DNA of 64,000 bases from SAR202 cluster bacterium Io17-Chloro-G2 (lineage in GTDB: Bacteria > Chloroflexota > Dehalococcoidia > Lucifugimonadales > UBA3495). The position numbers were made by a program, and so were the translations under genes. Location of the stretch: positions 9,864 to 73,863 of the forward strand of contig MUCP01000012.1 of the NCBI GenBank assembly GCA_002816875.1. The letters are read 5' to 3'. The first letter of the stretch is position 1. Every line of letters starts with the position of its first letter. Under the pieces are notes generated by a model, which was not told the origin of the DNA, did not search any database, and saw nothing but the letters and a program-made list of their open reading frames with translations. This document shows positions 33,624 to 58,161 of this stretch, one piece after another.

Positions 33624-34262
33624 ATGGTTGAGGCAGCATTCACCACCTACTACGATTTTCGTTGACCCTTCGTATACAATGCCGCCATGTGGCTGGCAAA
33701 AGTGGAATCGAGCACGGGGTCCAAGGTTGAAGTAGACTGGCAGCCCTTCGCCCTGGCCCAGGTCAACGCAGACAAAGATGCGGAACTAAAGGTCTGGGAA
33801 AGGCCGGATGTATTAGACGGGACCGATCCGATTTTCCTGGCCCACCGGTCGGGTCTGGCGGCCAAACGCCAGGGTAAAGAGGCCTTCGAGGCTTTCTTCA
33901 TCGCCCTGCTGAAGCAGCGCCACGAGGAAAAGGCCGACTTGAACGATCCCGACGTGATGAAGGCAGCGGCCACGACGGCCGGCTTGGACTTGGCTCGTTT
34001 TCTGGAAGACCAGGCCGACCCCGATCTACTCAAAGAGATTGGGGACAGCCACACCAAAGCGGTGGAAGAGTACGGCGCATTTGGGGTGCCCACATTTATC
34101 TTGCCCGGAGGCAAGACCGCTTTCGTGAAAATGTTCATACCTCCCGAAGAACAGGCGAGCGATATATACGACACCCTGACACATGTGATCAGCGAGTTTG
34201 ATCACGTAGGTGAAGTAAAGCGCCCGCAGCCGCCGTGGCCTCACGGAGTGATCAAGGGATAA
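33624..34262 (+). CDS. DsbA-family (FrnE/mycoredoxin-like) thioredoxin-fold protein with in-frame TGA at 33663-33665; candidate selenoprotein
   Basis: ATG 33624 is preceded by AGGAGG (33611-33616). Translation: MVEAAFTTYYDFR-TGA-PFVYNAAMWLAKVESS..., continuous with track ORF 33687-34262. The TGA sits where family members carry the CP(F/W)x redox Cys. Confidence 0.6.
33681..33697 (+). promoter_or_regulatory. SECIS-like hairpin
   Basis: GCCGCC-AUGU-GGCuGGC: 6 bp with one bulged U. It starts 15 nt after the TGA. Confidence 0.45.
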
Positions 34263-46085: not shown

Positions 46086-47861
46086 CTACCGCCGGCCGAA
46101 CTCCCGCTCCATGTGGTAGGAGCTGAAATGGATCATGGTCGGGCGGCCGTGGGGGCAGGTGTGGGGATTGTCGGCCGCCTCCAATTGCTCCAACAGAGAG
46201 GTCATCTCGCCTTCGGTCAGGCCCTTGCCGGCCCGGATGGCGCCGTGGCAGGCGATGGACGCCGCTAGGACGTCTTCTTGCTGCCGCAGCATCCCTTCAA
46301 AGGCCACCATGTCCAGCACATCCACCAGGGATTTTCCAGGGTCTCCTTGGCCTTGTGAGGCGAGGACGCCGGGCACCGCCCGCAGCAGGTAGCTGTTGTC
46401 CCCGAAATGCTCCACCCCGAAGCCGTAATCTTTTAAAAATCCGCCATGTTCCCGAAGGACATCCACCTGAGCCGGCGACAATTCCACCGCTACCGGCTCC
46501 AACAGGGGCTGGGACAGGGGCTCCTTCTCTTGGGACCCTTGCCTCAACCGGTCGAACAATACTCTCTCGTGGGCGGCGTGCTGGTCCACCAGGAACATCC
46601 CTTCCGGGCCTTCCGCTACGATATAGGTCAATTTTAGTTGGCCCACGACTTTGAGGGCCGGACCAGCGGGCCTGGGCATGGCTGGATCTAACGTTTCCAG
46701 TTGGGATGGATAGGGTACATCGTGGCCGCCACTGCCTTGTTCCCCGCCGGCTTGGCCTCCACCTCGGCCTCCGCCTTGGCCGCCGAAAGAGATACGCGGA
46801 AAGAACGAAGGCGCCGCGGCAGCCGCATGGCCTGGCGCCGGCTGCGGCGGCCGCATCTGGGGCACGGGAGAATCAGCCACCAGAACCGCCCGCACCGCCC
46901 GTTGCAGCGTGGAGAAAGCCTTGCCTTCCTGGTGGAAGCGGACTTCACGTTTGGAGGGATGGGAGTTGACGTCCACCTGGCTGTAGGGGATGTCCAGGTT
47001 TAACGCCGCCAGGGGATAACGCCTTTCCGGCAGCAGGCCGTGGTACGCCTCTTCCAGGGCGAAAGAAAGCATTCGGCTTTGGATCCAACGCCGGTTGACG
47101 AAAAATGTCATATGGGTGCGGTTGGCCCGGTTCAGGCCGGGAGGGCTGATGAACCCGTCCACCCCATAGCCCGACTCGGCAGCCTCTCCGTGGACCTCCA
47201 GCATATGTTCCGCCACGCCCGCGCCGTATACCGCCGCCAGGGCGTCTTTGGGACTGCCGCTGCCCGGGGTGAGCAACTGCTGCTTGCCATCGACGGTCAG
47301 TTGAAACCGTGTCTGGGGATAAGCCAGAGCATAGCGGCTAACCAGTTCCTGAACTCGGGAGGCTTCGGTGGAAGTCGTGCGCAAGAATTTACGGCGGGCG
47401 GGAAGGTTGCCGAAGAGGTCCGACACCGTTACCGAGGTGCCTTCCGCTGCTCCCTGGGCGCCGGAATGGGTGAAGTCGCCCCATTTTAGACGCACCGTGT
47501 GCCCAGCGCCGGATTCGGCCGGACGGGTGGTGAGGGTTAGTTCTGAGACCGCGGCAATGCTGGGCAGGGCTTCACCCCGGAACCCCAGGGTGCTCATGGC
47601 CTCCAATTGCTCCTGGCTCTCCAACTTGCTGGTGGCGTGACGCTGGAAGGCCAGCTCCACCTGGTCCCCGGGAATGCCGTGGCCGTCGTCGGTGATGCGT
47701 ATCTGCTGAATGCCGCCACCTTGGATCTCGACGGTGATGTGAGAAGAGCCGGCGTCCAACGAATTCTCCACCAACTCTTTAACCACCGACGCCGGGCGTT
47801 CCACCACTTCGCCAGCGGCGATCTTGCTGGCCAGGTCCGGCGGAAGCAACTTTATGGGCAT
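46086..47861 (-). CDS. mutL: DNA mismatch repair protein MutL
   Basis: 591 aa. Contains IAAGEVVERPASVVKELVENSLDAG and GFRGEAL motifs, and a C-terminal CPHGRP motif. Confidence 0.95.
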   Translation of the reverse strand: MPIKLLPPDLASKIAAGEVVERPASVVKELVENSLDAGSSHITVEIQGGGIQQIRITDDGHGIPGDQVELAFQRHATSKLESQEQLEAMSTLGFRGEALPSIAAVSELTLTTRPAESGAGHTVRLKWGDFTHSGAQGAAEGTSVTVSDLFGNLPARRKFLRTTSTEASRVQELVSRYALAYPQTRFQLTVDGKQQLLTPGSGSPKDALAAVYGAGVAEHMLEVHGEAAESGYGVDGFISPPGLNRANRTHMTFFVNRRWIQSRMLSFALEEAYHGLLPERRYPLAALNLDIPYSQVDVNSHPSKREVRFHQEGKAFSTLQRAVRAVLVADSPVPQMRPPQPAPGHAAAAAPSFFPRISFGGQGGGRGGGQAGGEQGSGGHDVPYPSQLETLDPAMPRPAGPALKVVGQLKLTYIVAEGPEGMFLVDQHAAHERVLFDRLRQGSQEKEPLSQPLLEPVAVELSPAQVDVLREHGGFLKDYGFGVEHFGDNSYLLRAVPGVLASQGQGDPGKSLVDVLDMVAFEGMLRQQEDVLAASIACHGAIRAGKGLTEGEMTSLLEQLEAADNPHTCPHGRPTMIHFSSYHMEREFGRR

Positions 47862-47870
47862 GGCTTTGCC

Positions 47871-48308
47871 TTAAAAAAGAGGTACTGTGGAACCCTTGGC
47901 CCGGTACTGCTTGTCTTCAGAGGTACCGGTGGTGATGAAGTCTCGCACTATGCGGTAGATGCGGTCCATCTGCTGGTCGAAGCTGCGCTTGAAGAAGTAA
48001 GGCGGCACCCAGACACCCCCGAAAGCGGCAACCACTTCGGGGTAGTCGTCGATGACGAATTCTGGCTCAAAGGGCACACCCAACTCCTCCAAACGCTCAT
48101 GGAAATGGTGGGTTGGTTTCTCGTAGACTCCGTTGATCAGGGGCTTCAGGTTGTGTTTTTCCACAACTTCCCAGCGTTCCCCCATGCCGGACCATATATA
48201 TATCTCGTTGCCGTCATCTTTAAGCTGTGTCAGGGTTTCGATGGTGCCCGGCCGCAGGCTGTCATCCAGGCCGAGGATGGTGTAGTCGACATCGAAAAAT
48301 ATCTTCAT
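47871..48308 (-). CDS. HAD-superfamily-like small hydrolase
   Basis: 145 aa. Contains the N-terminal FFDVDYT (DxDxT) motif. Confidence 0.55.
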   Translation of the reverse strand: MKIFFDVDYTILGLDDSLRPGTIETLTQLKDDGNEIYIWSGMGERWEVVEKHNLKPLINGVYEKPTHHFHERLEELGVPFEPEFVIDDYPEVVAAFGGVWVPPYFFKRSFDQQMDRIYRIVRDFITTGTSEDKQYRAKGSTVPLF

Positions 48309-48499
48309 TTACGATATGAAGTCCTTTTTAGCAAGCTGGAATATTGCCCCTGCCCTCGGGCCGGCAACATAACGCCACACATTATATCGTAACGAAGGCG
48401 ACGATAACACGCTAACCCGCAAGCAAAATAGGTCCCTCTTCACCCCCTGGCCGTCACGGGTTCGCATCTTTGTGGACCGATCCCCGGATCTAGCTAGTC

Positions 48500-48853
48500 C
48501 TAACCCGCCAGGGCGGCCTCCATGACCTTCATACTGGCTCCCACCACCAGCTTGCCGCCGATGCGAACCAGGGGCCTGCGAATCAATCTGGGCTCTTGGA
48601 GCATGAGGTCCATCATCTGGCTTTCCGGGAGGTCTTGTCCGTCGAGGCCCAACTTTTTCAGGCTTGGGCTGCGCCGGGCGAACAGATTGCCCAGGCCCTC
48701 TTCTTTAGCCAGGGCCTGCAGCTCATCCCGGCTAAACGGCTCTTTGAAGAAGTCCCGCTCTTCGACTTCCATACCTCTTTGTAAGAGCAACTCTCTTACC
48801 TTGCGGCAGGACGATCAACTACGCCACCAGTAGAGTGTAACCTTGTCGCTCAT
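48500..48853 (-). CDS. Spx/ArsC/YffB-family protein with in-frame TGA (48817-48815) at the first position of the CxxC motif; candidate selenoprotein
   Basis: ATG 48853 is preceded by GAGG. Translation: MSDKVTLYWWRS-TGA-SSCRKVRELLLQRGMEVEERDFF..., continuous with track ORF 48500-48790. Spx reads MVTLYTSPSCTSCRKA, so the TGA aligns with the first Cys. Total length 117 codons, typical for the family. Confidence 0.7.
48781..48799 (-). promoter_or_regulatory. SECIS-like hairpin
   Basis: GUAAGAG-AGUUG-CUCUUAC: a perfect 7-bp stem starting 15 nt after the TGA. Confidence 0.5.
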
Positions 48854-49028
48854 ATCAACCTCTCGATAGTAGTTGCCTTCATTGTATGACCCGGGTTCGG
48901 CACGAACCTGATTCGGGTGACCTCTGGGCAAGTGAGGCCCAACGGTTCTGATCCACATGCCGTTCTGCGTCAACCTGCCGCACTTCCACGGCGGAGTTAG
49001 TGGTTGGCCACCGGCTGTTGTTAACAAC

Positions 49029-49112
49029 CAATCCTTCGACAAGCTCAGGGCGAACGGATTCAGGCATTTTTACTGGTCGTGGTGACCCCGATGCAATCGG
49101 GGCGAACCATCG
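49029..49112 (-). repeat. Dispersed intergenic repeat (locus G), immediately downstream of mutS
   Basis: The minus strand reads ggttcgccccgattgcatcggggtcaccacgacc...ccgttcgccctgagcttgtcgaaggattgg. Confidence 0.8.
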
Positions 49113-49125
49113 TTCGAACCGGTTT

Positions 49126-51807
49126 CTATTGGTCAAGGGCGATTCGCGATTCGCAGCCTTCGGATTCACGTAATTGTTCCTGTAGTTGGTAGAGTTTATT
49201 GATCGCTTCCAAAGGGGTAAGGTTTGGTATATCCAACCGGCGCAACTGGTCGGCCATCGTATCCGCTGGATTAAACAGTTGCATCTGCTGGGCCGGCGCC
49301 ACGGTTTTCTTTCCTTTGCCGGGGCTTGTGATCTGGTGGCCGTCACGCTCCAGGTCTTCCAGCACCTCCCAGGCCCGGTTCACAACCCCCCTGGGCAACC
49401 CGGCAAGCTGGGCCACGTGGACGCCGTAGCTCTTGTCGGCCCCTCCGGGCACTATTCGGTGTAGGAACACCACGTCGCCGTCCTCCTCGGCCACCGCCAC
49501 GCTAAAGTTGCGCACACCCGGCAGGATGCCGGCCAGGCCGGTGAGTTCATGGTAGTGGGTGGCGAACAGGGTCTTGCAACCCAACCGGGGGTCGTTGTGA
49601 AGGTGCTCGATCACAGACCGGGCGATGGACAACCCGTCATAGGTGCTGGTGCCCCGGCCGACCTCGTCGAGGATCACCAGGGACCTGGAGGTCGCCTGGT
49701 TCAAGATGGCGGCCGTCTCCACCATCTCCACCATGAAGGTGGACTGGCCGGTGGCCAGATCGTCTTGCAGGCCGACCCTGGTGAAGATGCGGTCCGTTAA
49801 TCCGATGGTGGCCTGGGACGCCGGGACGAAGCTGCCGATCTGTGCCATGAGGGTGATGATGGCCACCTGGCGGATGAATGTGGACTTTCCGGCCATGTTG
49901 GGCCCGGTGAGCACGACAACAGGGCATTCGCCCGTCACCAGGCTGACGTCGTTAGGAACGTAGGCCCCGGGGTCCAGCACTAGCTCGACAACGGGATGGC
50001 GGCCGGCCTGAATGGCTATGGTGTTGCCCAAATTCAACTCGGGCCGGACATATCCGTGATTCACTGCCACCTCGGCCAGATTGGCAAAAACGTCGGCCTG
50101 AGCCACCGCCTGGGCCAGGGCAGTTATGGCCCCGCCCGACTCCCCCACCTGGGCGCACACCCGGCGGTAGATGGCCCGCTCGGTCTCCTCGATACGTTCC
50201 CTGGCGTTTAGCACCAGGGACTCGTACTCCTTCAGTTCGGGAACTATGTACCGCTCTGCGTGGGTCAGGGTCTGGCGCCGAATGTAGTCGTCGGGCGTCT
50301 GCCCGGAATTCACCTTACTCACCTCGATGTAATAGCCAAACACCTGGTTGTATCCTACTTTCAGGCCCCTGATCCCAGTCCTATCCCGCTCCCGCTGTTC
50401 CAAACCCGCGATGAACCGGCGGGCGTCGCTGGCCCCGGATTTCAGTTGGTCCAACTCCGGCGCGAACCCTTCCTGGATGACGTTGCCATCGCCCACCGCG
50501 CCCGATGGCTCGGCGACGATGGCGGTTCGAATAAGGGCAGACACGTCCGGCAGCGGCGTGAGTTGCCGCCGAAGCCATTCCACCGCACCGGCGGACCGGT
50601 CTGCCTGGTCTTGGGGGCCTGGCCCGTTAGCAACCTCGGGTGCGGCGGCGCTGGGGTCTTTGGCCAACAGCCGGGACAGTTCGTCCACGGCCTCTAGCCC
50701 ATGGGCCATGGCCACCAAATCCCTGGGAAGCACGGAGCCCGCTTGCACCCGGCTCCGAATCCGTTCCAGGTCGGGGATCTTACGCAGCAAAGCAGACGTA
50801 TTGGCCCTGAGAATGGCATCCTGAAAGAAATATTCCACCGCGTCCAACCGTTGAGCCAAGGGTTCGACTTCCAACAGCGGCTGGCCCAGCCACCGGCGCA
50901 GCAGTCGGCCGCCCATGGGCGTGCGGGTCTGGTCCAGGGTGGAAAGCAACGACAATTGCCCCGTGCCCCAGCGTCCCGCTTGAAACAACTCTAGATTCCG
51001 GCGGGTCTGCACGTCCAGGGTCATGAACGATTGGGTGGAGTACACCGCCAGATTAGCCAGCGGCAGTTCAGACTGTTTTTGGGTCAGTCCCAAATAGTGG
51101 AGGATGGCCCCGGCGGCGCGGACCGCCAAGGGCAAATCCTGGCAGCCAAGGGACTCCAGAGACAGGATCCCGTACAGGCACAGAAGGTCGCGGGTGCAGC
51201 TTTCTAGGTCAAAAGCCGATGGTTCCACCTGGGTCAACATACATCCAGATATGCCATCCCCGTTGGAGGCCCACAAAGGCGGCTCCTCGGCCGCCGGGGT
51301 CAGCGCCTCGGCGGCGCCGATCCGTTCCAGTTCCAGGGCCAGGCGGCGAGGGTCCAATTGGGTGGCGGCAAACTCCCCGGTGGAGATATCTGCGTAGGCC
51401 AACCCGGCTGATCCGCCTTCCTCCACCACCGCGGCCAGGTAATTGTTAGAGTTCTGCGCCAGAAGGGCCGGCTCGGTGACCGTGCCCGGCGTGACCACCC
51501 GGACCACGCCCCGGTCAACTAGGCCTTTGGAGGCCGAGGGCTCGGTGAGTTGCTCGCAGATGGCCACTTTGTGTCCCCGTTTGATCAAACGGGCCAGGTA
51601 GTTCTCCAGCGAGTGGGCGGGCACCCCGGCCATGGGAACGCGGAGGTCCTTGCCCATGCTGCGAGAGGTGAGGGTAATCTCCAGTTCCTGGGCGGCGATG
51701 CGGGCGTCGTCGTCGAAGGTCTCGTAAAAATCCCCCAACCGGAACAGGACGATGGCGTCGGGATAAGAGTGTTTGACCTTGAGATATTGGCGGCGGATCG
51801 GCGTCAC
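49126..51807 (-). CDS. mutS: DNA mismatch repair protein MutS
   Basis: 893 aa. N-terminal MTPIRRQYLKVKHSYPDAIVLFRLGDFYETF, a Walker A motif TGPNMAGKST, and DEVGRGTSTYDG. Confidence 0.96.
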   Translation of the reverse strand: MTPIRRQYLKVKHSYPDAIVLFRLGDFYETFDDDARIAAQELEITLTSRSMGKDLRVPMAGVPAHSLENYLARLIKRGHKVAICEQLTEPSASKGLVDRGVVRVVTPGTVTEPALLAQNSNNYLAAVVEEGGSAGLAYADISTGEFAATQLDPRRLALELERIGAAEALTPAAEEPPLWASNGDGISGCMLTQVEPSAFDLESCTRDLLCLYGILSLESLGCQDLPLAVRAAGAILHYLGLTQKQSELPLANLAVYSTQSFMTLDVQTRRNLELFQAGRWGTGQLSLLSTLDQTRTPMGGRLLRRWLGQPLLEVEPLAQRLDAVEYFFQDAILRANTSALLRKIPDLERIRSRVQAGSVLPRDLVAMAHGLEAVDELSRLLAKDPSAAAPEVANGPGPQDQADRSAGAVEWLRRQLTPLPDVSALIRTAIVAEPSGAVGDGNVIQEGFAPELDQLKSGASDARRFIAGLEQRERDRTGIRGLKVGYNQVFGYYIEVSKVNSGQTPDDYIRRQTLTHAERYIVPELKEYESLVLNARERIEETERAIYRRVCAQVGESGGAITALAQAVAQADVFANLAEVAVNHGYVRPELNLGNTIAIQAGRHPVVELVLDPGAYVPNDVSLVTGECPVVVLTGPNMAGKSTFIRQVAIITLMAQIGSFVPASQATIGLTDRIFTRVGLQDDLATGQSTFMVEMVETAAILNQATSRSLVILDEVGRGTSTYDGLSIARSVIEHLHNDPRLGCKTLFATHYHELTGLAGILPGVRNFSVAVAEEDGDVVFLHRIVPGGADKSYGVHVAQLAGLPRGVVNRAWEVLEDLERDGHQITSPGKGKKTVAPAQQMQLFNPADTMADQLRRLDIPNLTPLEAINKLYQLQEQLRESEGCESRIALDQ

Positions 51808-52528: not shown

Positions 52529-53251
52529 TTACGCCTTCCAGAACCGCTCTTCGATGAATTTCCAGCCCTTGGGCGGGATCTTGGCTTTCACGTCTTCGAT
52601 CATCCCTGGATGGCCACAGGTGTAAACCCTGGTGTCGTCCATGGGCAGTTCAAATGTTTCCAGGAATTCCTCGGCAACGGCATTGACCCGCCCCTTGACG
52701 CCGGTCCACTCTGAGTTGCGCTCCTCACCGGGACGGCTCACCGTGGGCACGAATTTTATAACGTAGGGATGCTGGGCGGCCATTTCGGCCAACTCCTTGT
52801 CATAGGTCAGTTCGTCGGCGTAACTGGCCCCCAGCAACACGTAAAATTTATGGCCCTCTCCTCCGTCGTGGAGGTAGCTGCGGATCATGCTGATGTATGG
52901 GGCTACCCCGGTTACGGTGGCCAGCATGAAATGGTGATGCACCTTACGGTCTAACAGAAATAAGCCTTTGGGGCGGGGCCGAATGGAGATGGTATCTCCC
53001 GAGTTCATCTTCCACAAAAGGGGCGTCAAAGCGCCGTCGGGAACCAGCTCAACGAATATCTCCAGAAACGGCTCGTGGGGCGCCGAGACGATGGAATACG
53101 CCCGCTCGATGCCTTCCAACCCCAGGGTGCAGTATTGACCCGGCTTGAAGACGAAAGGGCCCTCTTCAGGCTCCAGTTTAATGATCATCAGATCGCTGGT
53201 GATGTCTGAGCGTTCCGCCAGCTTAGCCGTGGGTAATTTCACTTTAAGCAC
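52529..53251 (-). CDS. Ferredoxin-NADP reductase-like FAD/NAD(P)-binding oxidoreductase
   Basis: 240 aa. Contains RAYSIVS (RxYS FAD motif) and the MLATVTGVAPYISM NAD(P) segment. Confidence 0.8.
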   Translation of the reverse strand: MLKVKLPTAKLAERSDITSDLMIIKLEPEEGPFVFKPGQYCTLGLEGIERAYSIVSAPHEPFLEIFVELVPDGALTPLLWKMNSGDTISIRPRPKGLFLLDRKVHHHFMLATVTGVAPYISMIRSYLHDGGEGHKFYVLLGASYADELTYDKELAEMAAQHPYVIKFVPTVSRPGEERNSEWTGVKGRVNAVAEEFLETFELPMDDTRVYTCGHPGMIEDVKAKIPPKGWKFIEERFWKA

Positions 53252-53396
53252 TATCCTGCCCTTCCTGCCAACGGCTTATTCTTCGCTTCTTCCAGCACTT
53301 GTGACCATGAGCCATTTTCCCTCCGAGCCGTGGCTTGCCTTACACCGCCGGGGATGCCCTGACCGGCTTCCCGGTGCTGTAAAGGATTCGACAACT

Positions 53397-56282
53397 TCAT
53401 TCCCCAGGTTCCCCACTGGAGTTATCCGGTTCAACAGGTTCGGATGGCCCACCAGCTTTGACCAGCGCCGCCGGTACGATCCGCAACCCCGGGACCCTGG
53501 AAGCCGGGTCCCACTCCTCGCTGGACTGGAGGTCCACCGCCAATTGTCCAAACAAACCCGTGGTGGCAATCACGCCCGCGGGCACCGAATCGGTTAGCCA
53601 AGCCACACCCTCCAGGCGTGGGCCGGCGGTTTGCACTTCTAACCTGTCCCCGGCCTCTATGGCCCAGGAATGGGCATCCGCGGGGTTTAATTCGAGGCGT
53701 TCCTCCCGGACGATTTGGTTACGCCGCCCCTTGACCACTTCTATCTCCCTATCGGCCTGCAACAAGACCCGGCCGGGAACCAACCACACCGGGAATTCCA
53801 GGCTGGGCTGCCGGCCGTCGAGACGGAACTCGGGGGTGACGGGTTGAGCTTTTTCCAAGGGAAATCCATCTTGATACAGCACCGGCGTACTTGGGTGGTC
53901 AGCATCCGGGCAGGGCCACTGGATGCCGGAATACTCCTTCCCGGCGTAGAGCACCTGCGTCGGCTGAGGGCTTTCCGCATTGGTGCGCAAGATCATTTTC
54001 CCTTCCGATTCTAACCTCGCGTAGGAAACGCCCCCGTAAATAGGTGTTAGCCTGGCGATCTCATCCATTGTCTCAGCCGCGGACCTTAAGTTAAAGCCGG
54101 AAGCGTTCATCCGGTTCGCCGCCTCACATATCAACCAACTATCGGGCCTGGTCCCATGGTTGCTGCTTTGCAACGCCGGCCGAAGACGCTGTATGCGCCT
54201 TTCCAGGTTGGTGAAGGTCCCTTCTTTTTCGGCAAAGGTGACCCTTGGGAGTACTAGGTGGGCCCTTTGGGCGGCCGGGCTGAGATGGGATGCGTGGACC
54301 GCCAAAAATTCCAGACCGCCAAGGGCCGCCAGCCCATTGCCGCCGGATTCTAGTTCCAGATCATCCAGCGAGGCGCCGTCTCCGAGGAGGAGGATAGCCT
54401 TGACCTGGCCGTTGGCTGCGGCTTCCAACGCGCTGTAAAGGCCAAGACCGGGGGCTTCGGGAATAGCGCATCCCCAAATGTCTTCAACTTCCCGCCGGGC
54501 GTCAGCATCGTCCACCCGCCGGTAGCCAGGGAGCTGGTGCGGGATGCAGCCGGTGTCCCAGGCGCCTTGCTCGTTGGCTGCCCGCCGCATGGGGTAGAGG
54601 CCGCTTCCCGGTTTGCCAAGGTTTCCGGTGACCAGGGCCAAATCTGCCAGGACGCGTACGCAATCCCTTTGGAGTTGGCGTGAGACGTTGTCCAGCCCGT
54701 AGACGATGGCGCTGGTGTCCGCCTCGCCATAAATCCGGGCGGCCTCGGTGATGGATTCTTGAGAGACACCGGTGGCGCGGACCACTTCATCCATGTCCAG
54801 ATTGTTGACTGCGTACCGCAGGGTGGCCGGGCTTTCACAGTGTTCTTCCAGCCAATCTGCCTTTTCCAGCCCCTGGTCGACCAACGACCGCAGTATGCCC
54901 CCAAGCAACAGCAGTTCCGAACCTGGGGCCGGACGCAGCCACAGGGTTGCGTAGCGGGTGAGCTCCACCTCCCGGGGGTCGATGACCAGGAGTTTGGCGC
55001 CATTTTTGGCTGCCCGTTTTATGGGGACGGCCACTACGTTTTGCTCCTCGGTGACGTTGGTGTTGAACACCAGGGTGCATCCGGCATGCTCCAACTCCCA
55101 GATGGAGTTGGTGGCCGCGGCGTAACCCAGGGAGCTCTCCAATGCCAACACCAACTCCGGATGGGTGTTGGAACTTTGGTCGACGTTGTTGGTGCCCATG
55201 ACAGTCCGGGCGAATTTTTGGGCCAGATAGTTTTCCTCATTGGTGCCGTCGGCCGCCGTGAGCAGGGCGAAGGAATCCCCTTTATACGCGCTCAATTTTT
55301 CGGCCAGAAGATCCAGGGCTTCGTCCCACGTGGCCTCCACCAACTGGCCGCCGCGGCGGACCAGAGGGGTTTCCAACGCGCCTGGATTATTTACGAACTC
55401 CAGTCCAAACTTACCTTTGAAACAGGCTTGACCCCGGTTGGCCGGTGAGTTTAGCTCCGGCACGGCCCTGATCAGTTTTCCACGGGAACTGATCTCCAGG
55501 TTCATCTGACAGCCCACCGGGCAGTGGGGACAGATGGTTCGCTCCACCTTGGCCGCCTTTTCCCATTTGTGGTCCCTTTCGGTCAGCGCCCCCACCGGAC
55601 AGACATCGATGCACGCGCCGCAGAATTCGCAGCCCGACTCCAATAGAGAGGTGCCAAAGGATGTGCCCACCAAGGCCGTGCCGCTGCGCTCGGTGAAACA
55701 GATGGCGTCGTCTCCCCGCAGTTCCTCGCATGCTCTCACACACCGCCCGCAAACGATGCACAAGTTGTAGTCCCGGTCGTAGAAAGGGTCGCCTACTTCC
55801 AGCGGGATACCCCGGTATTTATATTCCAAGGGCGATTCCAGGCTCATACCCAGATAACGCACTGTGTCCTTCAATTCGCAGCGTTCGTTTTTGGGACAGG
55901 TGACACACCGGTCATTGACTGAAACGTGGCGAAGGCACACGTCGTCGGGGCCGCAGATATCGACCCTGTGACAGGTAAGGCAACCGTCGGGATGCTCGGC
56001 GATCAACATCTCCATCACCGACTTGCGCAACTGATGGACATCCCCGGTCTCGCTGTGGACCTTCATGCCGTCCTGTACCGGCAGGGTGCAGGCGGCGGGA
56101 AAGCCTCGGCCTCCCTCCACACTTACCACGCACATCCGGCAGGCGGCGTAGGGCTTCATGCCGGGGTGGTAACAAAGATAGGGCACGTACACGCCGGCCT
56201 CGATAGCGGCATCCAGGACCATCTTGCCGGCCTGGGTCTTTACCTCAACACCGTCTATGGTGATGGTGATCTCATCAGCCAT
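53397..56282 (-). CDS. NuoG/FdsA-like Fe-S plus molybdopterin-fold subunit without a recognisable catalytic Cys/Sec
   Basis: 961 aa. It has an N-terminal 2Fe-2S segment (CYHPGMKPYAACRMC), several 4Fe-4S motifs, then an MopB-like body. The stretch TNNVDQSSNTHPELVLAL replaces the FDH motif NNVDxxARxC/UH. Confidence 0.8.
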   Translation of the reverse strand: MADEITITIDGVEVKTQAGKMVLDAAIEAGVYVPYLCYHPGMKPYAACRMCVVSVEGGRGFPAACTLPVQDGMKVHSETGDVHQLRKSVMEMLIAEHPDGCLTCHRVDICGPDDVCLRHVSVNDRCVTCPKNERCELKDTVRYLGMSLESPLEYKYRGIPLEVGDPFYDRDYNLCIVCGRCVRACEELRGDDAICFTERSGTALVGTSFGTSLLESGCEFCGACIDVCPVGALTERDHKWEKAAKVERTICPHCPVGCQMNLEISSRGKLIRAVPELNSPANRGQACFKGKFGLEFVNNPGALETPLVRRGGQLVEATWDEALDLLAEKLSAYKGDSFALLTAADGTNEENYLAQKFARTVMGTNNVDQSSNTHPELVLALESSLGYAAATNSIWELEHAGCTLVFNTNVTEEQNVVAVPIKRAAKNGAKLLVIDPREVELTRYATLWLRPAPGSELLLLGGILRSLVDQGLEKADWLEEHCESPATLRYAVNNLDMDEVVRATGVSQESITEAARIYGEADTSAIVYGLDNVSRQLQRDCVRVLADLALVTGNLGKPGSGLYPMRRAANEQGAWDTGCIPHQLPGYRRVDDADARREVEDIWGCAIPEAPGLGLYSALEAAANGQVKAILLLGDGASLDDLELESGGNGLAALGGLEFLAVHASHLSPAAQRAHLVLPRVTFAEKEGTFTNLERRIQRLRPALQSSNHGTRPDSWLICEAANRMNASGFNLRSAAETMDEIARLTPIYGGVSYARLESEGKMILRTNAESPQPTQVLYAGKEYSGIQWPCPDADHPSTPVLYQDGFPLEKAQPVTPEFRLDGRQPSLEFPVWLVPGRVLLQADREIEVVKGRRNQIVREERLELNPADAHSWAIEAGDRLEVQTAGPRLEGVAWLTDSVPAGVIATTGLFGQLAVDLQSSEEWDPASRVPGLRIVPAALVKAGGPSEPVEPDNSSGEPGE

Positions 56283-56427
56283 TTCAACGCTCTCAGTGGT
56301 GCGCTTAGAATCTCAAAGGTCTTGGTTCGCCAAAGATTGGGTTAGCGTCGATATAAGCTCTCATCGGGTCGGCCCTGGGAACCAAGCTTGTCTTCAAAAG
56401 TGATTTGTGATCAACCTTGGGCTGAAA

Positions 56428-58161
56428 TCATCTGCGGGTTTGGGAGGGAGAGTACCGGGAGGCCAGGCAGCGCCCGGTAGGGCAGGTCCGGCCATTGATA
56501 TGGGCGTCGAACTCATCTCCAAAGTACTTCAGGGCGGACGATACCGGATTGAACCCCAATTGCCCGTGGCCACACAGGGAGCCGGCCTGCATGTTCTCTC
56601 CGATGTTGCGCATCAAGGCCAGGTCTTCCGCGCCGCCTTCCAGCCGGCAGATGCGCTCCAACACCTCCAGCAGGTGGCTCATGCCCATGCGGCAGGGGAA
56701 ACATTTACCGCATGACTCGTACTGGCAGAAGGCAATGAGGGCACGGGTCAGATCCACCACGCAGGTGTCTTCGTCGGCGGCGATGATCCCGCCGGACCCC
56801 AGAATGGCGCCGGCGTTGCGGAAAACCTCAAAGTCCAGCAACAGGTCCACGTCTTCCGCGCCCAGGACGCCACCCAGGGGACCGCCGGTCTGCACCAGCT
56901 TCAGGTCCTTGCCGCCGGGTACACCCCCGGCCACATTAAAGAGCACGTCCTTCAGGCTCACACCCATGGGCAGCTCCACCATGCCGGTGTAATTCAGGTC
57001 GCCTGTCAGGCAGAGGATGGCGGTGCCGGTACTTTGTTCGTGGCCTATCCCCGCGAACCATTCCCCGCCCTGGGAAATGATCTCGGGAACGTAGGACAGG
57101 GTTTTGACGTTGTTGATGTTGGTGGGCTTGCCGAAGAGGCCCACCTGAGCGGGAAATGGGGGCCGGTAGCGGGGCATGGCCCGGCCACCCTCGATGGCAT
57201 CCATCAGGGCGGTTTCCTCTCCAGCAACGTAGGAGTCTCCGGTGAGGGCGACTTCCAGTTCAAAGTCGAAATCCGACCCAAAGATGCTGTTTCCTAGGAT
57301 CCCCAATTCCTGAGCCTGCTGGACCGCCTCTCGCGCCCGCTCTATCGGCCCATCGTGGCCGTGGCGTATGAAGATATAGCCGTGGGCGGCCCCGGTGGCG
57401 TAACCGGCCAGCAATATCCCCTCAACCAGGGTATGGGGGTCGCTTTCGACAATCGCTTTGTCATTGAAAGCGCCGGGGTCCCCTTCTTCGCAATTGCAAA
57501 GGATGTATTTAACCGGCGCGTTGGAACCCGATAAGAATCGCCATTTCGTTGCGGCGGGAAACGCGGCCCCGCCACGCCCCCTGAGTCCCGCTGTAGCGAC
57601 CTCCTCCAGGGTTTGCTCCGGGGTCATGGAGGTCAGGGCTTTGTGCAGCGCCTGATAACCGCCAACGGCCAGGTATTGGTAGATATCGCCAGGGTCTATG
57701 TTGCCGGCGTTGCGCAGGGCTATCCGCTTCTCCAAGACACGCATGGGATGCAGATTCAGATCGGGAATACCCTCGGGCGGCTCTTCTCCCGCGGCGGCAT
57801 CGGGGTTGCTCAGGAACCCCAGGGCTAGAGGGGTCACTGGGTTGCCCTCCCGAAGATGGACGGAGACGATCCTATTCACTGATTCGGGGGTCACGTTTCC
57901 GTAGAAGATGCGGGGACCGTTGGGAAACTGCACGTCCAGCAATGGTTCGGCGAAACAAAGGCCCAGGCAACCCACGTGGCTAACGTTGCCCTCCACTCCA
58001 TGGCGTTCCATGGCTGATTCCAGGGCATCCAGCACTTCCTCGCAACCGGCAGCCTGGCCGCACAGAGCCGAGCCCACGCGAACCCAGGGCAGGTTTCCGG
58101 AGGTCAAACTTCGCCATCGGGAACCGGCCTGGGCATTTATATCTTGGTAGCTGAGGACCAT
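56428..58161 (-). CDS. NuoF/FdsB-like NADH-binding flavoprotein subunit with N-terminal thioredoxin-like 2Fe-2S domain
   Basis: 577 aa. Contains GLRGRGGAAFPAATKW (FMN/NADH site), ESCGKCFPCR (N3 cluster) and an N-terminal C...C...CLGLC segment. Confidence 0.88.
   Translation of the reverse strand: MVLSYQDINAQAGSRWRSLTSGNLPWVRVGSALCGQAAGCEEVLDALESAMERHGVEGNVSHVGCLGLCFAEPLLDVQFPNGPRIFYGNVTPESVNRIVSVHLREGNPVTPLALGFLSNPDAAAGEEPPEGIPDLNLHPMRVLEKRIALRNAGNIDPGDIYQYLAVGGYQALHKALTSMTPEQTLEEVATAGLRGRGGAAFPAATKWRFLSGSNAPVKYILCNCEEGDPGAFNDKAIVESDPHTLVEGILLAGYATGAAHGYIFIRHGHDGPIERAREAVQQAQELGILGNSIFGSDFDFELEVALTGDSYVAGEETALMDAIEGGRAMPRYRPPFPAQVGLFGKPTNINNVKTLSYVPEIISQGGEWFAGIGHEQSTGTAILCLTGDLNYTGMVELPMGVSLKDVLFNVAGGVPGGKDLKLVQTGGPLGGVLGAEDVDLLLDFEVFRNAGAILGSGGIIAADEDTCVVDLTRALIAFCQYESCGKCFPCRMGMSHLLEVLERICRLEGGAEDLALMRNIGENMQAGSLCGHGQLGFNPVSSALKYFGDEFDAHINGRTCPTGRCLASRYSPSQTRR

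What the first reader, a model, noticed from the sequence alone, without database searches (positions are those of the whole stretch)
48500..48853. A Spx/ArsC-family gene between mutS and mutL has TGA in place of the first Cys of CxxC (U-S-S-C), with a perfect 7-bp hairpin 15 nt downstream
Track ORFs 48815-49042 (its last 12 codons) and 48500-48790 are in the same frame and are separated only by TGA 48817-48815. Joined from ATG 48853 they give a 117-residue protein: MSDKVTLYWWRS-U-SSCRKVRELLLQRGMEVEERDFFKEPFS.... This is colinear with Spx/YffB (MVTLY...C-x-x-C-RKA...). The hairpin GUAAGAG-AGUUG-CUCUUAC follows at the same 15-nt spacing as in the DsbA-like gene. Without recoding, the family-defining N-terminus would be lost.
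Basis: partly seen in the sequence, partly recalled or inferred. Interest (0 to 1): 0.7.

Follow-up and report, generated by a model that had tools for sequence, protein, structure and literature searches.

The report
Selenocysteine-coding ArsC/Spx-like redox gene
This small gene between mutS and mutL almost certainly reads its internal TGA as selenocysteine with the help of a conserved RNA hairpin, but this family of marine selenoproteins has been catalogued since 2008, so it is a correct call rather than a new kind of thing.

Summary
On the minus strand, ATG 48853 to TAG 48500 is one 117-codon frame interrupted only by TGA 48817-48815. A perfect 7-bp hairpin (48799-48781) starts 15 nt after the TGA.

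The joined protein is an ArsC-family (PF03960) thioredoxin-fold protein. Its closest solved relatives are Spx proteins, and the TGA aligns with Spx Cys10 of the CxxC motif.

- All 70 related loci examined, from Dehalococcoidia/Chloroflexota genomes and metagenomes (46-90% identity), keep TGA at this codon.
- A start codon lies exactly 12 codons upstream in 50 of 51 distinct sequences, and the N-terminus is under protein-level selection.
- The hairpin is kept with compensatory base changes and strongly suppressed synonymous variation. It fits the published bacterial SECIS model.
- Full-length homologues carry Cys at this position.
- TGA is the commonest ordinary stop codon in the window.

Sec machinery genes were not found in the window, and the rest of the genome could not be searched. 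The support here is indirect. A second known selenoprotein type (DsbA-like UxxV) lies in the same window, and Dehalococcoidia MAGs rank among the most selenoprotein-rich bacteria.

The family is already known: a read filed under "Arsenate reductase 2, UxxC" in the 2008 GOS selenoproteome is 47% identical. Public gene calls truncate it.

The parts
48500..48853 (-). Complete selenoprotein coding sequence: 117 residues (ATG start, Sec at codon 13, TAG stop). It encodes an ArsC/Spx-family thioredoxin-fold protein with the motif U13-S-S-C16.
   Evidence: Translation. Pfam ArsC PF03960 scores 63.3 bits over residues 8-111. The best PDB matches are Spx proteins, E = 8e-14.
48851..48853 (-). ATG start codon.
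   Evidence: At the position exactly 12 codons before the TGA, 50 of 51 distinct orthologous N-terminal segments have a start codon: ATG 27, TTG 20, CTG 2, GTG 1 (the remaining one has TTC). In-frame stops lie shortly upstream in many loci.
48859..48864 (-). Shine-Dalgarno-like GAGAGG, 5 nt upstream of the ATG.
   Evidence: Read directly from the sequence. Its function is inferred, not tested.
48815..48817 (-). In-frame TGA, proposed selenocysteine codon (residue 13). It is equivalent to Spx Cys10, the first Cys of the CxxC motif.
   Evidence: TGA is present in 70 of 70 related loci. Full-length homologues have Cys here. It aligns with Spx C10.
48806..48808 (-). TGC, Cys16, the proposed resolving cysteine of the U-x-x-C motif.
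   Evidence: Cys is invariant in 51 of 51 distinct sequences. It aligns with Spx C13.
48781..48799 (-). Bacterial SECIS-like hairpin. The 5' arm is 48799-48793 (GUAAGAG), the loop is 48792-48788 (AGUUG) and the 3' arm is 48787-48781 (CUCUUAC). It overlaps codons V19-L24.
   Evidence: It forms in the MFE fold and is the RNAalifold consensus of 59 distinct sequences. 98.8% of cells are paired, with compensatory changes UA->CG (19 sequences) and AU->GC (5 sequences). The second loop base, G, is invariant. Synonymous entropy is 0.23 in the hairpin codons against 0.77 elsewhere.
48800..48814 (-). 15-nt spacer between the UGA and the hairpin. The distance from the UGA to the apical loop is 22 nt.
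   Evidence: Read from the sequence. The spacing is constant, with no gaps, across all 59 aligned sequences. It lies within the 16-37 nt range of the bSECIS model.
49126..51807 (-). Context: mutS, upstream on the same strand, separated by a 272-nt gap.
   Evidence: All five MutS Pfam domains match. This synteny is kept in loci whose MutS is 56-89% identical.
47871..48308 (-). Context: conserved 145-aa HAD-like gene, downstream on the same strand, ending 9 nt before mutL.
   Evidence: Weak Pfam Hydrolase_3 match, E = 0.007. It is 76-97% identical across the loci.
46086..47861 (-). Context: mutL.
   Evidence: Pfam MutL_C, DNA_mis_repair and HATPase_c_3 match.

Best explanation
The gene at 48853-48500 (minus strand) encodes a 117-residue selenoprotein of the ArsC/Spx thioredoxin-fold superfamily.

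Recoding mechanism. Codon 13 is UGA. It is decoded as selenocysteine by Sec-tRNA(Sec) delivered by SelB. SelB is recruited by the hairpin that begins 15 nt downstream inside the coding sequence, which has a 7-bp stem and an AGUUG loop containing a conserved G-U.

Protein function. The product has a U13-S-S-C16 redox centre at the position of the Spx Cys10-x-x-Cys13 motif. Sec13 is the attacking nucleophile and Cys16 resolves it, giving a reversible selenenylsulfide. I commit to a catalytic thiol/selenol-disulfide oxidoreductase role, glutaredoxin-like or ArsC-like. I consider a transcription-factor role less likely.

What is shown:
- the frame, the UGA and the hairpin;
- their conservation and covariation in related sequences;
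- the Cys/UGA correspondence with homologues;
- family membership at the Pfam level.

What is inferred:
- actual Sec insertion;
- SelB binding to the hairpin;
- the selenenylsulfide chemistry;
- the physiological substrate.
For: 1. TGA is kept at the same codon in 70 of 70 related loci. These comprise 4 species-representative genomes, 66 metagenome contigs and the window itself, less one distant match that has no stop at this codon (L069); they span 46-90% protein identity.
2. In 50 of 51 distinct sequences a start codon lies exactly 12 codons upstream. The N-terminal F/L-Y-W-W is conserved while synonymous codons vary (TAC 33 / TAT 17; TTT 21 / TTC 16). The upstream segment is therefore translated in this frame.
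3. Full-length homologues have Cys at the U position within C-x-x-C: P0020 and P0123-P0144. U13 and C16 align with Spx C10 and C13.
4. RNAalifold predicts exactly this 7-bp hairpin as the consensus of 59 distinct sequences.
   - 98.8% of cells are paired, against 33-59% when the partner columns are slid.
   - There are 24 double-sided compensatory cells, and 0 of 500 shuffles reach that number.
5. Codon choice in the hairpin is frozen (GAG 58/58, CTC 60/62, TTG 49/58). Mean synonymous entropy is 0.23 against 0.77 for the other 90 codon columns. The permutation p is below 1e-5, and this is the lowest of all contiguous 6-codon windows.
6. The hairpin meets the published bSECIS constraints (PMC13188914).
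   - The loop is 5 nt and the stem is 7 bp.
   - G is the second loop base (invariant) and is followed by U.
   - The UGA-to-loop distance is 22 nt.
7. TGA is an ordinary stop codon in this genome, ending 13 of 27 confidently identified genes.
8. The same window carries a second gene of a catalogued selenoprotein type, DsbA-like U-P-F-V.
9. The related loci come from Dehalococcoidia/Chloroflexota. BSepDB lists two Dehalococcoidia MAGs with 49 and 46 selenoproteins.
10. A read in the GOS selenoproteome set 'Arsenate reductase 2 UxxC' is 47% identical, E = 5e-36, with U at the same position.
Against: - No selA, selB, selD or tRNA-Sec was found in the 64-kb window or in about 427 kb of related loci. 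The rest of the genome could not be searched.
- No Rfam family matches the hairpin. This is weak evidence, because no Rfam family matched at either TGA-linked hairpin in the window.
- The 19-nt hairpin alone folds at only -6.6 kcal/mol in the window sequence, weaker than the -7.5 threshold of the bSECIS model. With its flanks the fold reaches -19.8 kcal/mol.
- The hairpin overlaps the strongly conserved peptide VRELLL, so part of its nucleotide conservation is protein-driven.
- The one Cys variant found close by (L071) still has the hairpin, so it gives no clean Cys-form control.
- The protein's biochemical role is untested. It falls below the curated cut-offs of every specific NCBIfam family.
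Confidence: 0.88

Rival explanations
1. The TGA is a genuine stop codon. Only the downstream ORF (about 90-96 residues, from TTG 48790 or ATG 48771) is made, or the gene is a pseudogene. The hairpin would then be a by-product of the conserved VRELLL peptide.
For: - Public gene callers annotate exactly this: 119 of the 120 best database hits are N-terminally truncated forms of 87-106 residues, and the called genes in L072 and L073 are 98 aa.
- The downstream ORF alone still passes the Pfam ArsC threshold at 49.4 bits.
- No Sec machinery was found in the window.
Against: - The 12 codons upstream of the TGA are conserved in frame, show a protein-level selection pattern, and begin with a conserved start codon in 50 of 51 distinct sequences.
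- TGA, never TAA or TAG, is kept in 70 of 70 loci across 46-90% identity.
- The truncated product would lack strand beta-1 and the whole CxxC centre (profile positions 1-13).
- The candidate internal ATG 48771 has its AGAGG only 1 nt upstream.
- Synonymous sites in the hairpin are frozen far beyond what the peptide requires.
Confidence: 0.03
2. The UGA is read through without selenocysteine. A near-cognate or suppressor tRNA would insert Trp, Cys or Gly, or TGA is reassigned in this lineage. The hairpin would then act as a general read-through stimulator.
For: - One database representative (P0122) carries W at this position, as if it had been called with a TGA = Trp table.
- Sec machinery was not demonstrated for this genome.
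Against: - TGA terminates 13 of 27 well-identified genes in the window, so it is not reassigned.
- The position is the nucleophilic Cys of a CxxC centre in all full-length homologues. Trp or Gly there would destroy the active site.
- The hairpin fits the SelB-type bSECIS model in loop G-U and in spacing.
- The lineage is documented as selenoprotein-rich.
- The family is already catalogued as a selenoprotein family.
Confidence: 0.05
3. This rival concerns function only. The recoding is as in the best explanation, but the protein is an Spx-type regulator. It would bind the RNA polymerase alpha C-terminal domain and use the selenenylsulfide as a redox switch, possibly tuning expression of the neighbouring mismatch-repair genes.
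For: - The best-scoring solved structures and NCBIfam models are Spx and Spx/MgsR: E = 8e-14, and TIGR01617 at 66.6 bits.
- U13/C16, G53, R61 and R92-R93-P94 align with Spx C10/C13, G52, R60 and R91-R92-P93.
- The position between mutS and mutL is kept in loci whose MutS is 56-89% identical.
Against: - The scores fall below the curated cut-offs: 66.6 against 75.05 for TIGR01617, and 62.4 against 123 for PRK01655.
- The protein is 117 residues long and lacks the C-terminal extension of the 131-residue Spx proteins.
- The residue equivalent to Spx G52 is not invariant in the family; it is Ala or Ser in P0047 and P0048.
- More distant Sec-containing homologues (L064-L067) lie in unrelated neighbourhoods.
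- From general knowledge: selenoproteins of known function use Sec catalytically, not as a regulatory sensor.
Confidence: 0.15

Closest known systems
GOS marine selenoprotein group 'Arsenate reductase 2 (cd03032, UxxC)', Zhang & Gladyshev 2008, PMC2398784. Example read: JCVI_READ_1318105, MIYYTWNKUSTCKKTRELLLQ...EPRLIRRPLV.
   Same: - Same fold family and the same U-x-x-C motif at the same position.
- 47% identity over 102 residues, E = 5e-36.
- The same conserved blocks: RELLLQ, ERD-F, RSPS-KK and EPRLIRRP.
   Different: - The GOS group is heterogeneous. Most of its reads are of a different type (WYY.R.GU..C...GNLRAPT).
- The window gene belongs to a Dehalococcoidia lineage in which it lies between mutS and mutL.
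- No SECIS description or gene context was found in the passages and supplementary text of the paper that were searched.
Spx, the redox-sensing RNA-polymerase-binding regulator of Firmicutes (PDB 1Z3E, 3L78, 6GHB).
   Same: - Best solved-structure match, E about 1e-13.
- Colinear over residues 5-108.
- U13/C16 align with C10/C13. The RS and RRP motifs are conserved.
   Different: - Sec replaces Cys10.
- 117 rather than about 131 residues, with no C-terminal tail.
- Below the NCBIfam Spx cut-offs.
- RNA polymerase binding is untested.
- The organism is a Chloroflexota member, not a Firmicute.
NCBIfam NF041106 'ArsC family (seleno)protein', listed as 'Arsenate reductase-like protein, UxxC' in selenoproteome reviews (PMC9312934, PMC13188914).
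   Same: An ArsC-superfamily selenoprotein with a UxxC motif.
   Different: The window protein scores only 32 bits against a cut-off of 85. It is therefore a different subfamily and would not be named by this model in automated annotation.
Bacterial SECIS consensus (the bSECISearch model) and the E. coli fdhF SECIS.
   Same: - A stem-loop inside the coding sequence just downstream of the UGA.
- A small apical loop with G in one of its first two positions, followed by U.
- A UGA-to-loop distance within 16-37 nt.
   Different: - No bulged U in the stem.
- The loop G is 24 nt after the UGA. By my recollection it is about 20 nt after the UGA in fdhF.
- The 7-bp stem alone is marginal in stability, at -6.6 kcal/mol.

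Membership tests
Bacterial selenoprotein gene (Sec-UGA plus bSECIS) | The in-frame UGA aligns with Cys in homologues. | tested here: met
   P0020 has TGC at this codon. The 13 full-length homologues read have C-x-x-C here. The codon aligns with Spx C10.
Bacterial selenoprotein gene (Sec-UGA plus bSECIS) | The UGA is conserved in orthologues, and coding conservation continues on both sides of it. | tested here: met
   TGA is present in 70 of 70 loci. The start codon and the YWW block upstream are conserved, with synonymous variation.
Bacterial selenoprotein gene (Sec-UGA plus bSECIS) | bSECIS geometry: a 3-9 nt apical loop, a 4-16 bp upper stem, G in the first two loop positions, and 16-37 nt from the UGA to the loop. 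| tested here: met
   The loop is AGUUG (5 nt) and the stem is 7 bp. G at loop position 2 is invariant in 59 sequences. The distance is 22 nt. The criteria are quoted from PMC13188914.
Bacterial selenoprotein gene (Sec-UGA plus bSECIS) | bSECIS minimum free energy at or below -7.5 kcal/mol. | tested here: inconclusive
   The 19-nt hairpin alone folds at -6.6 kcal/mol in the window sequence and at -8.6 to -10.9 in several orthologues. The 61-nt stretch folds at -19.8 kcal/mol. The result depends on how much flanking sequence the model counts.
Bacterial selenoprotein gene (Sec-UGA plus bSECIS) | The structure is supported by covariation. | tested here: met
   Two of the seven pairs show double-sided changes, in 24 cells. 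0 of 500 shuffles reach the observed covariation score or percentage paired.
Bacterial selenoprotein gene (Sec-UGA plus bSECIS) | selA, selB, selD and tRNA-Sec are present in the same genome. | not testable with these tools
   None was found in the 64-kb window or in about 427 kb of related loci. The rest of the genome is not available. Indirect support comes from a second catalogued selenoprotein type in the window and from the selenoprotein-rich Dehalococcoidia MAGs in BSepDB.
Bacterial selenoprotein gene (Sec-UGA plus bSECIS) | Selenium is physically incorporated at the UGA position. | not testable with these tools
   This needs 75Se labelling or mass spectrometry.
ArsC family (Pfam PF03960) | Domain score above the gathering threshold. 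| tested here: met
   63.3 bits against a threshold of 24, covering residues 8-111 and profile positions 1-76 of 79.
Spx/MgsR RNA-polymerase-binding regulators (TIGR01617, NF002459) | Score above the curated cut-off. | tested here: not met
   TIGR01617 scores 66.6 against 75.05. NF002459 scores 62.4 against 123.
Spx/MgsR RNA-polymerase-binding regulators (TIGR01617, NF002459) | An N-terminal CxxC redox switch at positions 10 and 13. | tested here: met
   U13-S-S-C16 aligns with C10-T-S-C13, with Sec in place of the first Cys.
Spx/MgsR RNA-polymerase-binding regulators (TIGR01617, NF002459) | Binding to the RNA polymerase alpha-CTD, including the Gly52 contact. | not testable with these tools
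   G53 aligns with Spx G52 in the window protein, but it is Ala or Ser in some family members. Binding itself needs an experiment.
Glutaredoxin-coupled arsenate reductase ArsC (TIGR00014) | Score above the curated cut-off. | tested here: not met
   48.4 against 106.05.
NCBIfam NF041106 ArsC family (seleno)protein | Score above the curated cut-off. | tested here: not met
   32 against 85.
GOS 'Arsenate reductase 2 (UxxC)' selenoprotein group | Significant similarity to a listed member, with U at the same position of a UxxC motif. | tested here: met
   47% identity and E = 5e-36 to JCVI_READ_1318105, with the motif aligned.

The most novel reading that the evidence does not exclude
The protein could be a selenocysteine-containing Spx-type regulator: a transcription factor whose redox switch is a selenenylsulfide. 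It would be fixed between mutS and mutL in one Dehalococcoidia lineage and would couple oxidative-stress sensing to expression of mismatch repair. No report of a selenoprotein acting as a regulator was found in the one literature search run for this. The evidence does not exclude it. Spx is the closest solved relative and the synteny is conserved. It is disfavoured, however, by the sub-threshold Spx scores, the missing C-terminal tail, and the different neighbourhoods of more distant Sec homologues.
Probability: 0.12. Interest if true: 0.7.

Novelty: new member of a known kind. Interest (0 to 1): 0.3.

Why it matters
The practical value is mainly for annotation. Of the 120 best database relatives, 119 are N-terminally truncated forms that lack the active site. 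No curated NCBIfam model reaches its cut-off on this subfamily, so automated pipelines will keep mis-calling it.

The 70-locus data set gives an unusually clean natural example of a bacterial SECIS. The spacing is fixed, the loop G is invariant, stem changes are compensatory, and synonymous sites are frozen. It could be used to train SECIS models for Chloroflexota.

It also adds to the evidence that marine Dehalococcoidia depend heavily on selenium. It does not open a new biological question, because the selenoprotein family has been catalogued since 2008.

Tried and rejected
- **tRNA-Sec.** ARAGORN found only tRNA-Thr in the window and nothing in 26 long related loci.
- **Rfam.** The gathering-threshold scan found only the tRNA.
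- **sel genes by Pfam.** I scanned 30 of the larger window ORFs and found no SelA, SelB or SelD domains.
- **sel genes by tblastn.** E. coli SelA, SelB and SelD were searched against the window plus all fetched loci (490,616 bases) with no hits. The Sec-machinery test therefore remains open.
- **Representative-library search.** I re-ran it with the natural Cys variant P0020.
- **Cys-form control for the hairpin.** I hoped P0020/L071 would serve as a control lacking the hairpin. It retains the hairpin, so it is a recent Sec-to-Cys change or an error, not a control. Synonymous-site analysis was used instead.
- **Promoter and terminator scan, 48250-49200.** It gave no more sites than shuffled sequence.
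- **Lower stems of the single-sequence fold.** These pair the UGA region, but RNAalifold does not support them across the alignment. I do not claim them.
- **Functional link to mismatch repair.** I considered one because of the synteny. More distant Sec homologues lie next to homoserine dehydrogenase/SDR genes or phosphotriesterase/SRAP genes instead, so I treat the link as lineage-specific placement.
- **Window-wide scan for in-frame TGAs next to redox motifs.** It was too noisy to be useful.
- **Structure prediction.** Not run, because the sequence-level match to solved Spx and ArsC structures already fixes the fold.
Full report
**Observation**

On the minus strand the sequence reads ATG(48853) AGC GAC AAG GTT ACA CTC TAC TGG TGG CGT AGT TGA(48817-48815) TCG TCC TGC CGC AAG GTA AGA GAG TTG CTC TTA CAA ... 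TAG(48502-48500). Translation gives MSDKVTLYWWRS*SSCRKVRELLLQRGMEVEERDFF...AALAG*.

The hairpin GUAAGAG-AGUUG-CUCUUAC occupies 48799-48781 and starts exactly 15 nt after the TGA. It is the apical element of the minimum-free-energy fold of the 61-nt stretch, which has an MFE of -19.8 kcal/mol and z = -3.1; 2 of 200 shuffles fold as well.

Pfam confirms the neighbours. mutS is at 49126-51807 and mutL at 46086-47861. A further 145-aa HAD-like gene at 47871-48308 lies between this gene and mutL. A GAGAGG motif lies 5 nt upstream of the ATG.

**What the protein is**

With Cys substituted for the stop, the 117-residue product matches Pfam ArsC (PF03960) at 63.3 bits over profile positions 1-76. The downstream ORF alone matches only from profile position 14.

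Among solved structures the best matches are Spx proteins, at E = 8e-14 to 3e-12. YffB follows at 4e-10 and the glutaredoxin-coupled arsenate reductases at about 1e-8. In the Spx alignments U13 and C16 lie on Spx C10 and C13, and R61-S62 and R92-R93-P94 lie on Spx R60-S61 and R91-R92-P93.

Against NCBIfam the best model is Spx/MgsR (TIGR01617), at 66.6 bits against a cut-off of 75.05. Every specific family is below its curated cut-off. That includes ArsC (48.4 against 106) and the curated selenoprotein model NF041106, 'ArsC family (seleno)protein' (32 against 85). The protein is therefore an ArsC-superfamily member of the Spx-like branch, but it cannot be filed in any curated subfamily.

**Is the TGA recoded? 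Comparative evidence**

A protein search returned 519 relatives. Of the best 120, 119 are 87-106 residues long and cover only 74-88% of the query, which means gene callers started them after the TGA. One, P0020 (123 aa), is full length and reads YWWPR-C-SSC-RKV.

A scan of species-representative genomes found four loci in Dehalococcoidia/Chloroflexota MAGs. A metagenome scan found 66 more. Including the window itself, and leaving out one distant match that has no stop at this codon (L069), 70 of 70 loci have a stop at the same codon, and in all 70 it is TGA. Their identity to the window protein ranges from 46% to 90%.

Upstream of the TGA, 50 of 51 distinct sequences carry a start codon exactly 12 codons before it (ATG 27, TTG 20, CTG 2, GTG 1). 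The block [FL]-Y-W-W is conserved while synonymous codons vary freely (TAC 33 / TAT 17; TTT 21 / TTC 16). This is the signature of translation in this frame.

A full HMMER scan of 1.84 billion cluster representatives, using P0020 as the query, found full-length homologues at 32-46% identity. Each of the 13 full-length ones I read has C-x-x-C at the aligned position, for example YWWKKCSSCRKV and YWYASCSQCRDA.

TGA ends 13 of 27 well-identified genes in the window, so the codon is not reassigned in this genome.

**The hairpin as a SECIS element**

I aligned 59 distinct 87-nt segments running from 12 nt before the TGA to 72 nt after it. They align without gaps. RNAalifold returns exactly the 7-bp hairpin, and nothing else, as the consensus structure.

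- 98.8% of the 413 cells form standard pairs. When the 3' partners are slid by 1-3 columns, the figure is 33-59%.
- Pair 2 changes U-A to C-G in 19 sequences, and pair 3 changes A-U to G-C in 5.
- 0 of 500 shuffles reach the observed number of double-sided changes, the covariation score or the percentage paired.
- The loop is AGUUG. Its second base, G, is invariant, and the following U is conserved in at least 90% of sequences.

The hairpin overlaps the conserved peptide V-R-E-L-L-L, so I asked whether the nucleotide conservation goes beyond what the peptide requires. It does.

- Glu is GAG in 58 of 58 sequences, whereas other Glu columns use GAA 20-50% of the time.
- The three Leu codons are fixed as TTG, CTC and TTA/TTG, whereas other Leu columns use five or six different codons.
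- Mean normalised synonymous entropy is 0.23 for the six hairpin codons and 0.77 for the other 90 codon columns.
- The permutation p is below 1e-5, and this is the lowest of all contiguous six-codon windows.

The published bacterial SECIS model requires four things (PMC13188914). It asks for a 3-9 nt apical loop on a 4-16 bp stem and at least one G in the first two loop positions, usually followed by G or U. It also asks for 16-37 nt between the UGA and the loop, and an MFE of -7.5 kcal/mol or lower. Here the loop is 5 nt, the stem is 7 bp, G-U occupies loop positions 2-3, and the distance is 22 nt. The energy criterion is met with the flanks (-19.8 kcal/mol). It is not met by the 19-nt hairpin alone in the window sequence (-6.6 kcal/mol, against -8.6 to -10.9 in several orthologues).

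**Sec machinery**

This is the one proposed test that stays open.

- ARAGORN finds only tRNA-Thr in the window and nothing in 26 long related loci.
- Rfam finds only that tRNA.
- Pfam scans of 30 larger ORFs show no SelA, SelB or SelD.
- tblastn with E. coli SelA, SelB and SelD against the window plus all fetched loci (490,616 bases) gives no hit.

A 64-kb window is about 1-2% of a genome of this kind, so this absence says little.

The indirect support is good.

- The same window holds a DsbA-like gene (33624-34262) with an in-frame TGA at 33663-33665 and the motif U-P-F-V.
  - The joined protein matches Pfam DSBA from profile position 4.
  - It is colinear with the GOS selenoprotein reads filed as 'DsbA 3 UXXV' (...YFDFRUPFVYNVAVWL...).
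- BSepDB lists two Dehalococcoidia MAGs with 49 and 46 selenoproteins in its table of genomes with the highest selenoprotein counts (PMC13326102).

**Comparison with what is known**

ArsC-like selenoproteins were listed among bacterial selenoprotein families by 2006 (PMC1794560). The 2008 GOS selenoproteome lists 'Arsenate reductase 1 (pfam03960, UxxS)' and 'Arsenate reductase 2 (cd03032, UxxC)', the latter with 42 Sec sequences (PMC2398784).

The supplementary sequence file for that study includes, under 'Arsenate reductase 2 UxxC', the read MIYYTWNKUSTCKKTRELLLQNNFNIVERDIFDDPLSE...AKRSPSVKKIGLD...EPRLIRRPLV. It is 47% identical to the window protein over 102 residues (E = 5e-36), with U on the window's TGA.

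Later reviews list 'Arsenate reductase-like protein, UxxC' and tie it to NF041106, a model the window protein does not reach.

The kind is therefore known. This gene is a further, unannotated member from a Dehalococcoidia lineage. Public gene calls for its closest relatives are truncated to 98 residues.

**Gene context**

The order fnr-like, mutS, Sec gene, HAD-like p145, mutL, amine oxidase is preserved in essentially every locus long enough to show it, with MutS identity between 56% and 89%.

The more distant Sec-containing homologues (46-47% identity; L064-L067) lie in unrelated neighbourhoods. These are homoserine dehydrogenase with an SDR and an MFS transporter, or phosphotriesterase with an SRAP peptidase. 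I therefore read the mutS-mutL position as a lineage-specific placement and not as evidence of a role in mismatch repair.

**Mechanism and rivals**

I commit to the following. UGA-13 is decoded as Sec by SelB bound to Sec-tRNA(Sec), recruited by the hairpin. The product is a thioredoxin-fold redox protein in which Sec13 attacks the substrate and Cys16 resolves the intermediate as a selenenylsulfide. It most likely acts as a catalytic thiol/selenol-disulfide oxidoreductase. The recoding part rests on comparative evidence and I put it near 0.9. The chemistry is inferred from the family.

Three rivals remain.

- A true stop or pseudogene, at about 0.03. It is contradicted by the conserved and selected N-terminus and by the exclusive use of TGA.
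- Read-through without Sec, or reassignment of TGA, at about 0.05. It is contradicted by the normal use of TGA as a stop and by the catalytic-Cys position.
- An Spx-type regulatory role for the same selenoprotein, at about 0.15. This concerns function only. It is not excluded, but it is disfavoured by the sub-threshold Spx scores, the missing C-terminal tail, a non-invariant equivalent of Spx G52, and the varying context of distant homologues.

**Verdict**

The finding is a correct identification of a selenoprotein gene, with an unusually well-supported SECIS element, in a family that was already catalogued. Interest is modest (0.3). Its value lies in annotation and in SECIS modelling.

Noticed in passing
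window 33624-34262 (+), TGA at 33663-33665: A second probable selenoprotein gene. It is a DsbA-like ORF with an in-frame TGA and the motif U-P-F-V. The joined protein matches Pfam DSBA from profile position 4. It is colinear with the reads filed as 'DsbA 3 UXXV' in the 2008 GOS selenoproteome. A hairpin with a bulged U also starts 15 nt after its TGA, but its loop is AUGU.
   Followed up: partly
window 47871-48308 (-): A 145-aa HAD-like protein (N-terminal FDVDYT motif; weak Pfam Hydrolase_3 match). Its gene ends 9 nt before mutL. It is 76-97% identical across the related loci, which makes it more conserved than MutS or MutL in the same loci. Its function is unknown.
   Followed up: partly
window 48818-48823 (-), the two codons before the UGA: In the orthologues, the two codons just upstream of the UGA also show suppressed synonymous variation (CCC 37/42, CGT 44/49; entropy 0.32 and 0.21). 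This suggests a constraint from sequence context on UGA decoding.
   Followed up: no
L071 365-736: A natural Cys variant (P0020; TGC in place of TGA) that retains an intact hairpin (GTAAGGG-AGTTG-CTCTTAC). It is either a very recent Sec-to-Cys replacement or a read error in a single Logan contig.
   Followed up: partly
L016 about 235-290: One metagenome orthologue has TAA at codon 3 (MS*KVAFYWWPR*), upstream of the conserved TGA. It is a pseudogene, a sequencing error, or a gene that uses an alternative start.
   Followed up: no
P0122 and the table: One cluster representative carries W at the Sec position (FWNRWSSCRKA), as if it had been called with a TGA = Trp table. About a third of the first 100 representatives begin just after the CxxC position. 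This suggests that many more truncated Sec forms exist beyond this lineage.
   Followed up: no
L073 10385-11800; L072 and L073 flanks: In the relatives that come from megabase-scale contigs, an IS66-family transposase is inserted between the ArsC-like gene and the HAD-like gene. Several other transposase genes flank mutS. The conserved block is therefore being disrupted in that genome.
   Followed up: no
window 52529-58161 (-): A cluster encoding an FNR-like reductase (52529-53251), a 961-aa formate-dehydrogenase-alpha-like molybdopterin enzyme with N-terminal 2Fe-2S and 4Fe-4S domains (53397-56282), and a NuoF-like subunit (56428-58161). The molybdopterin enzyme is an uninterrupted ORF, so this copy does not contain Sec.
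   Followed up: no
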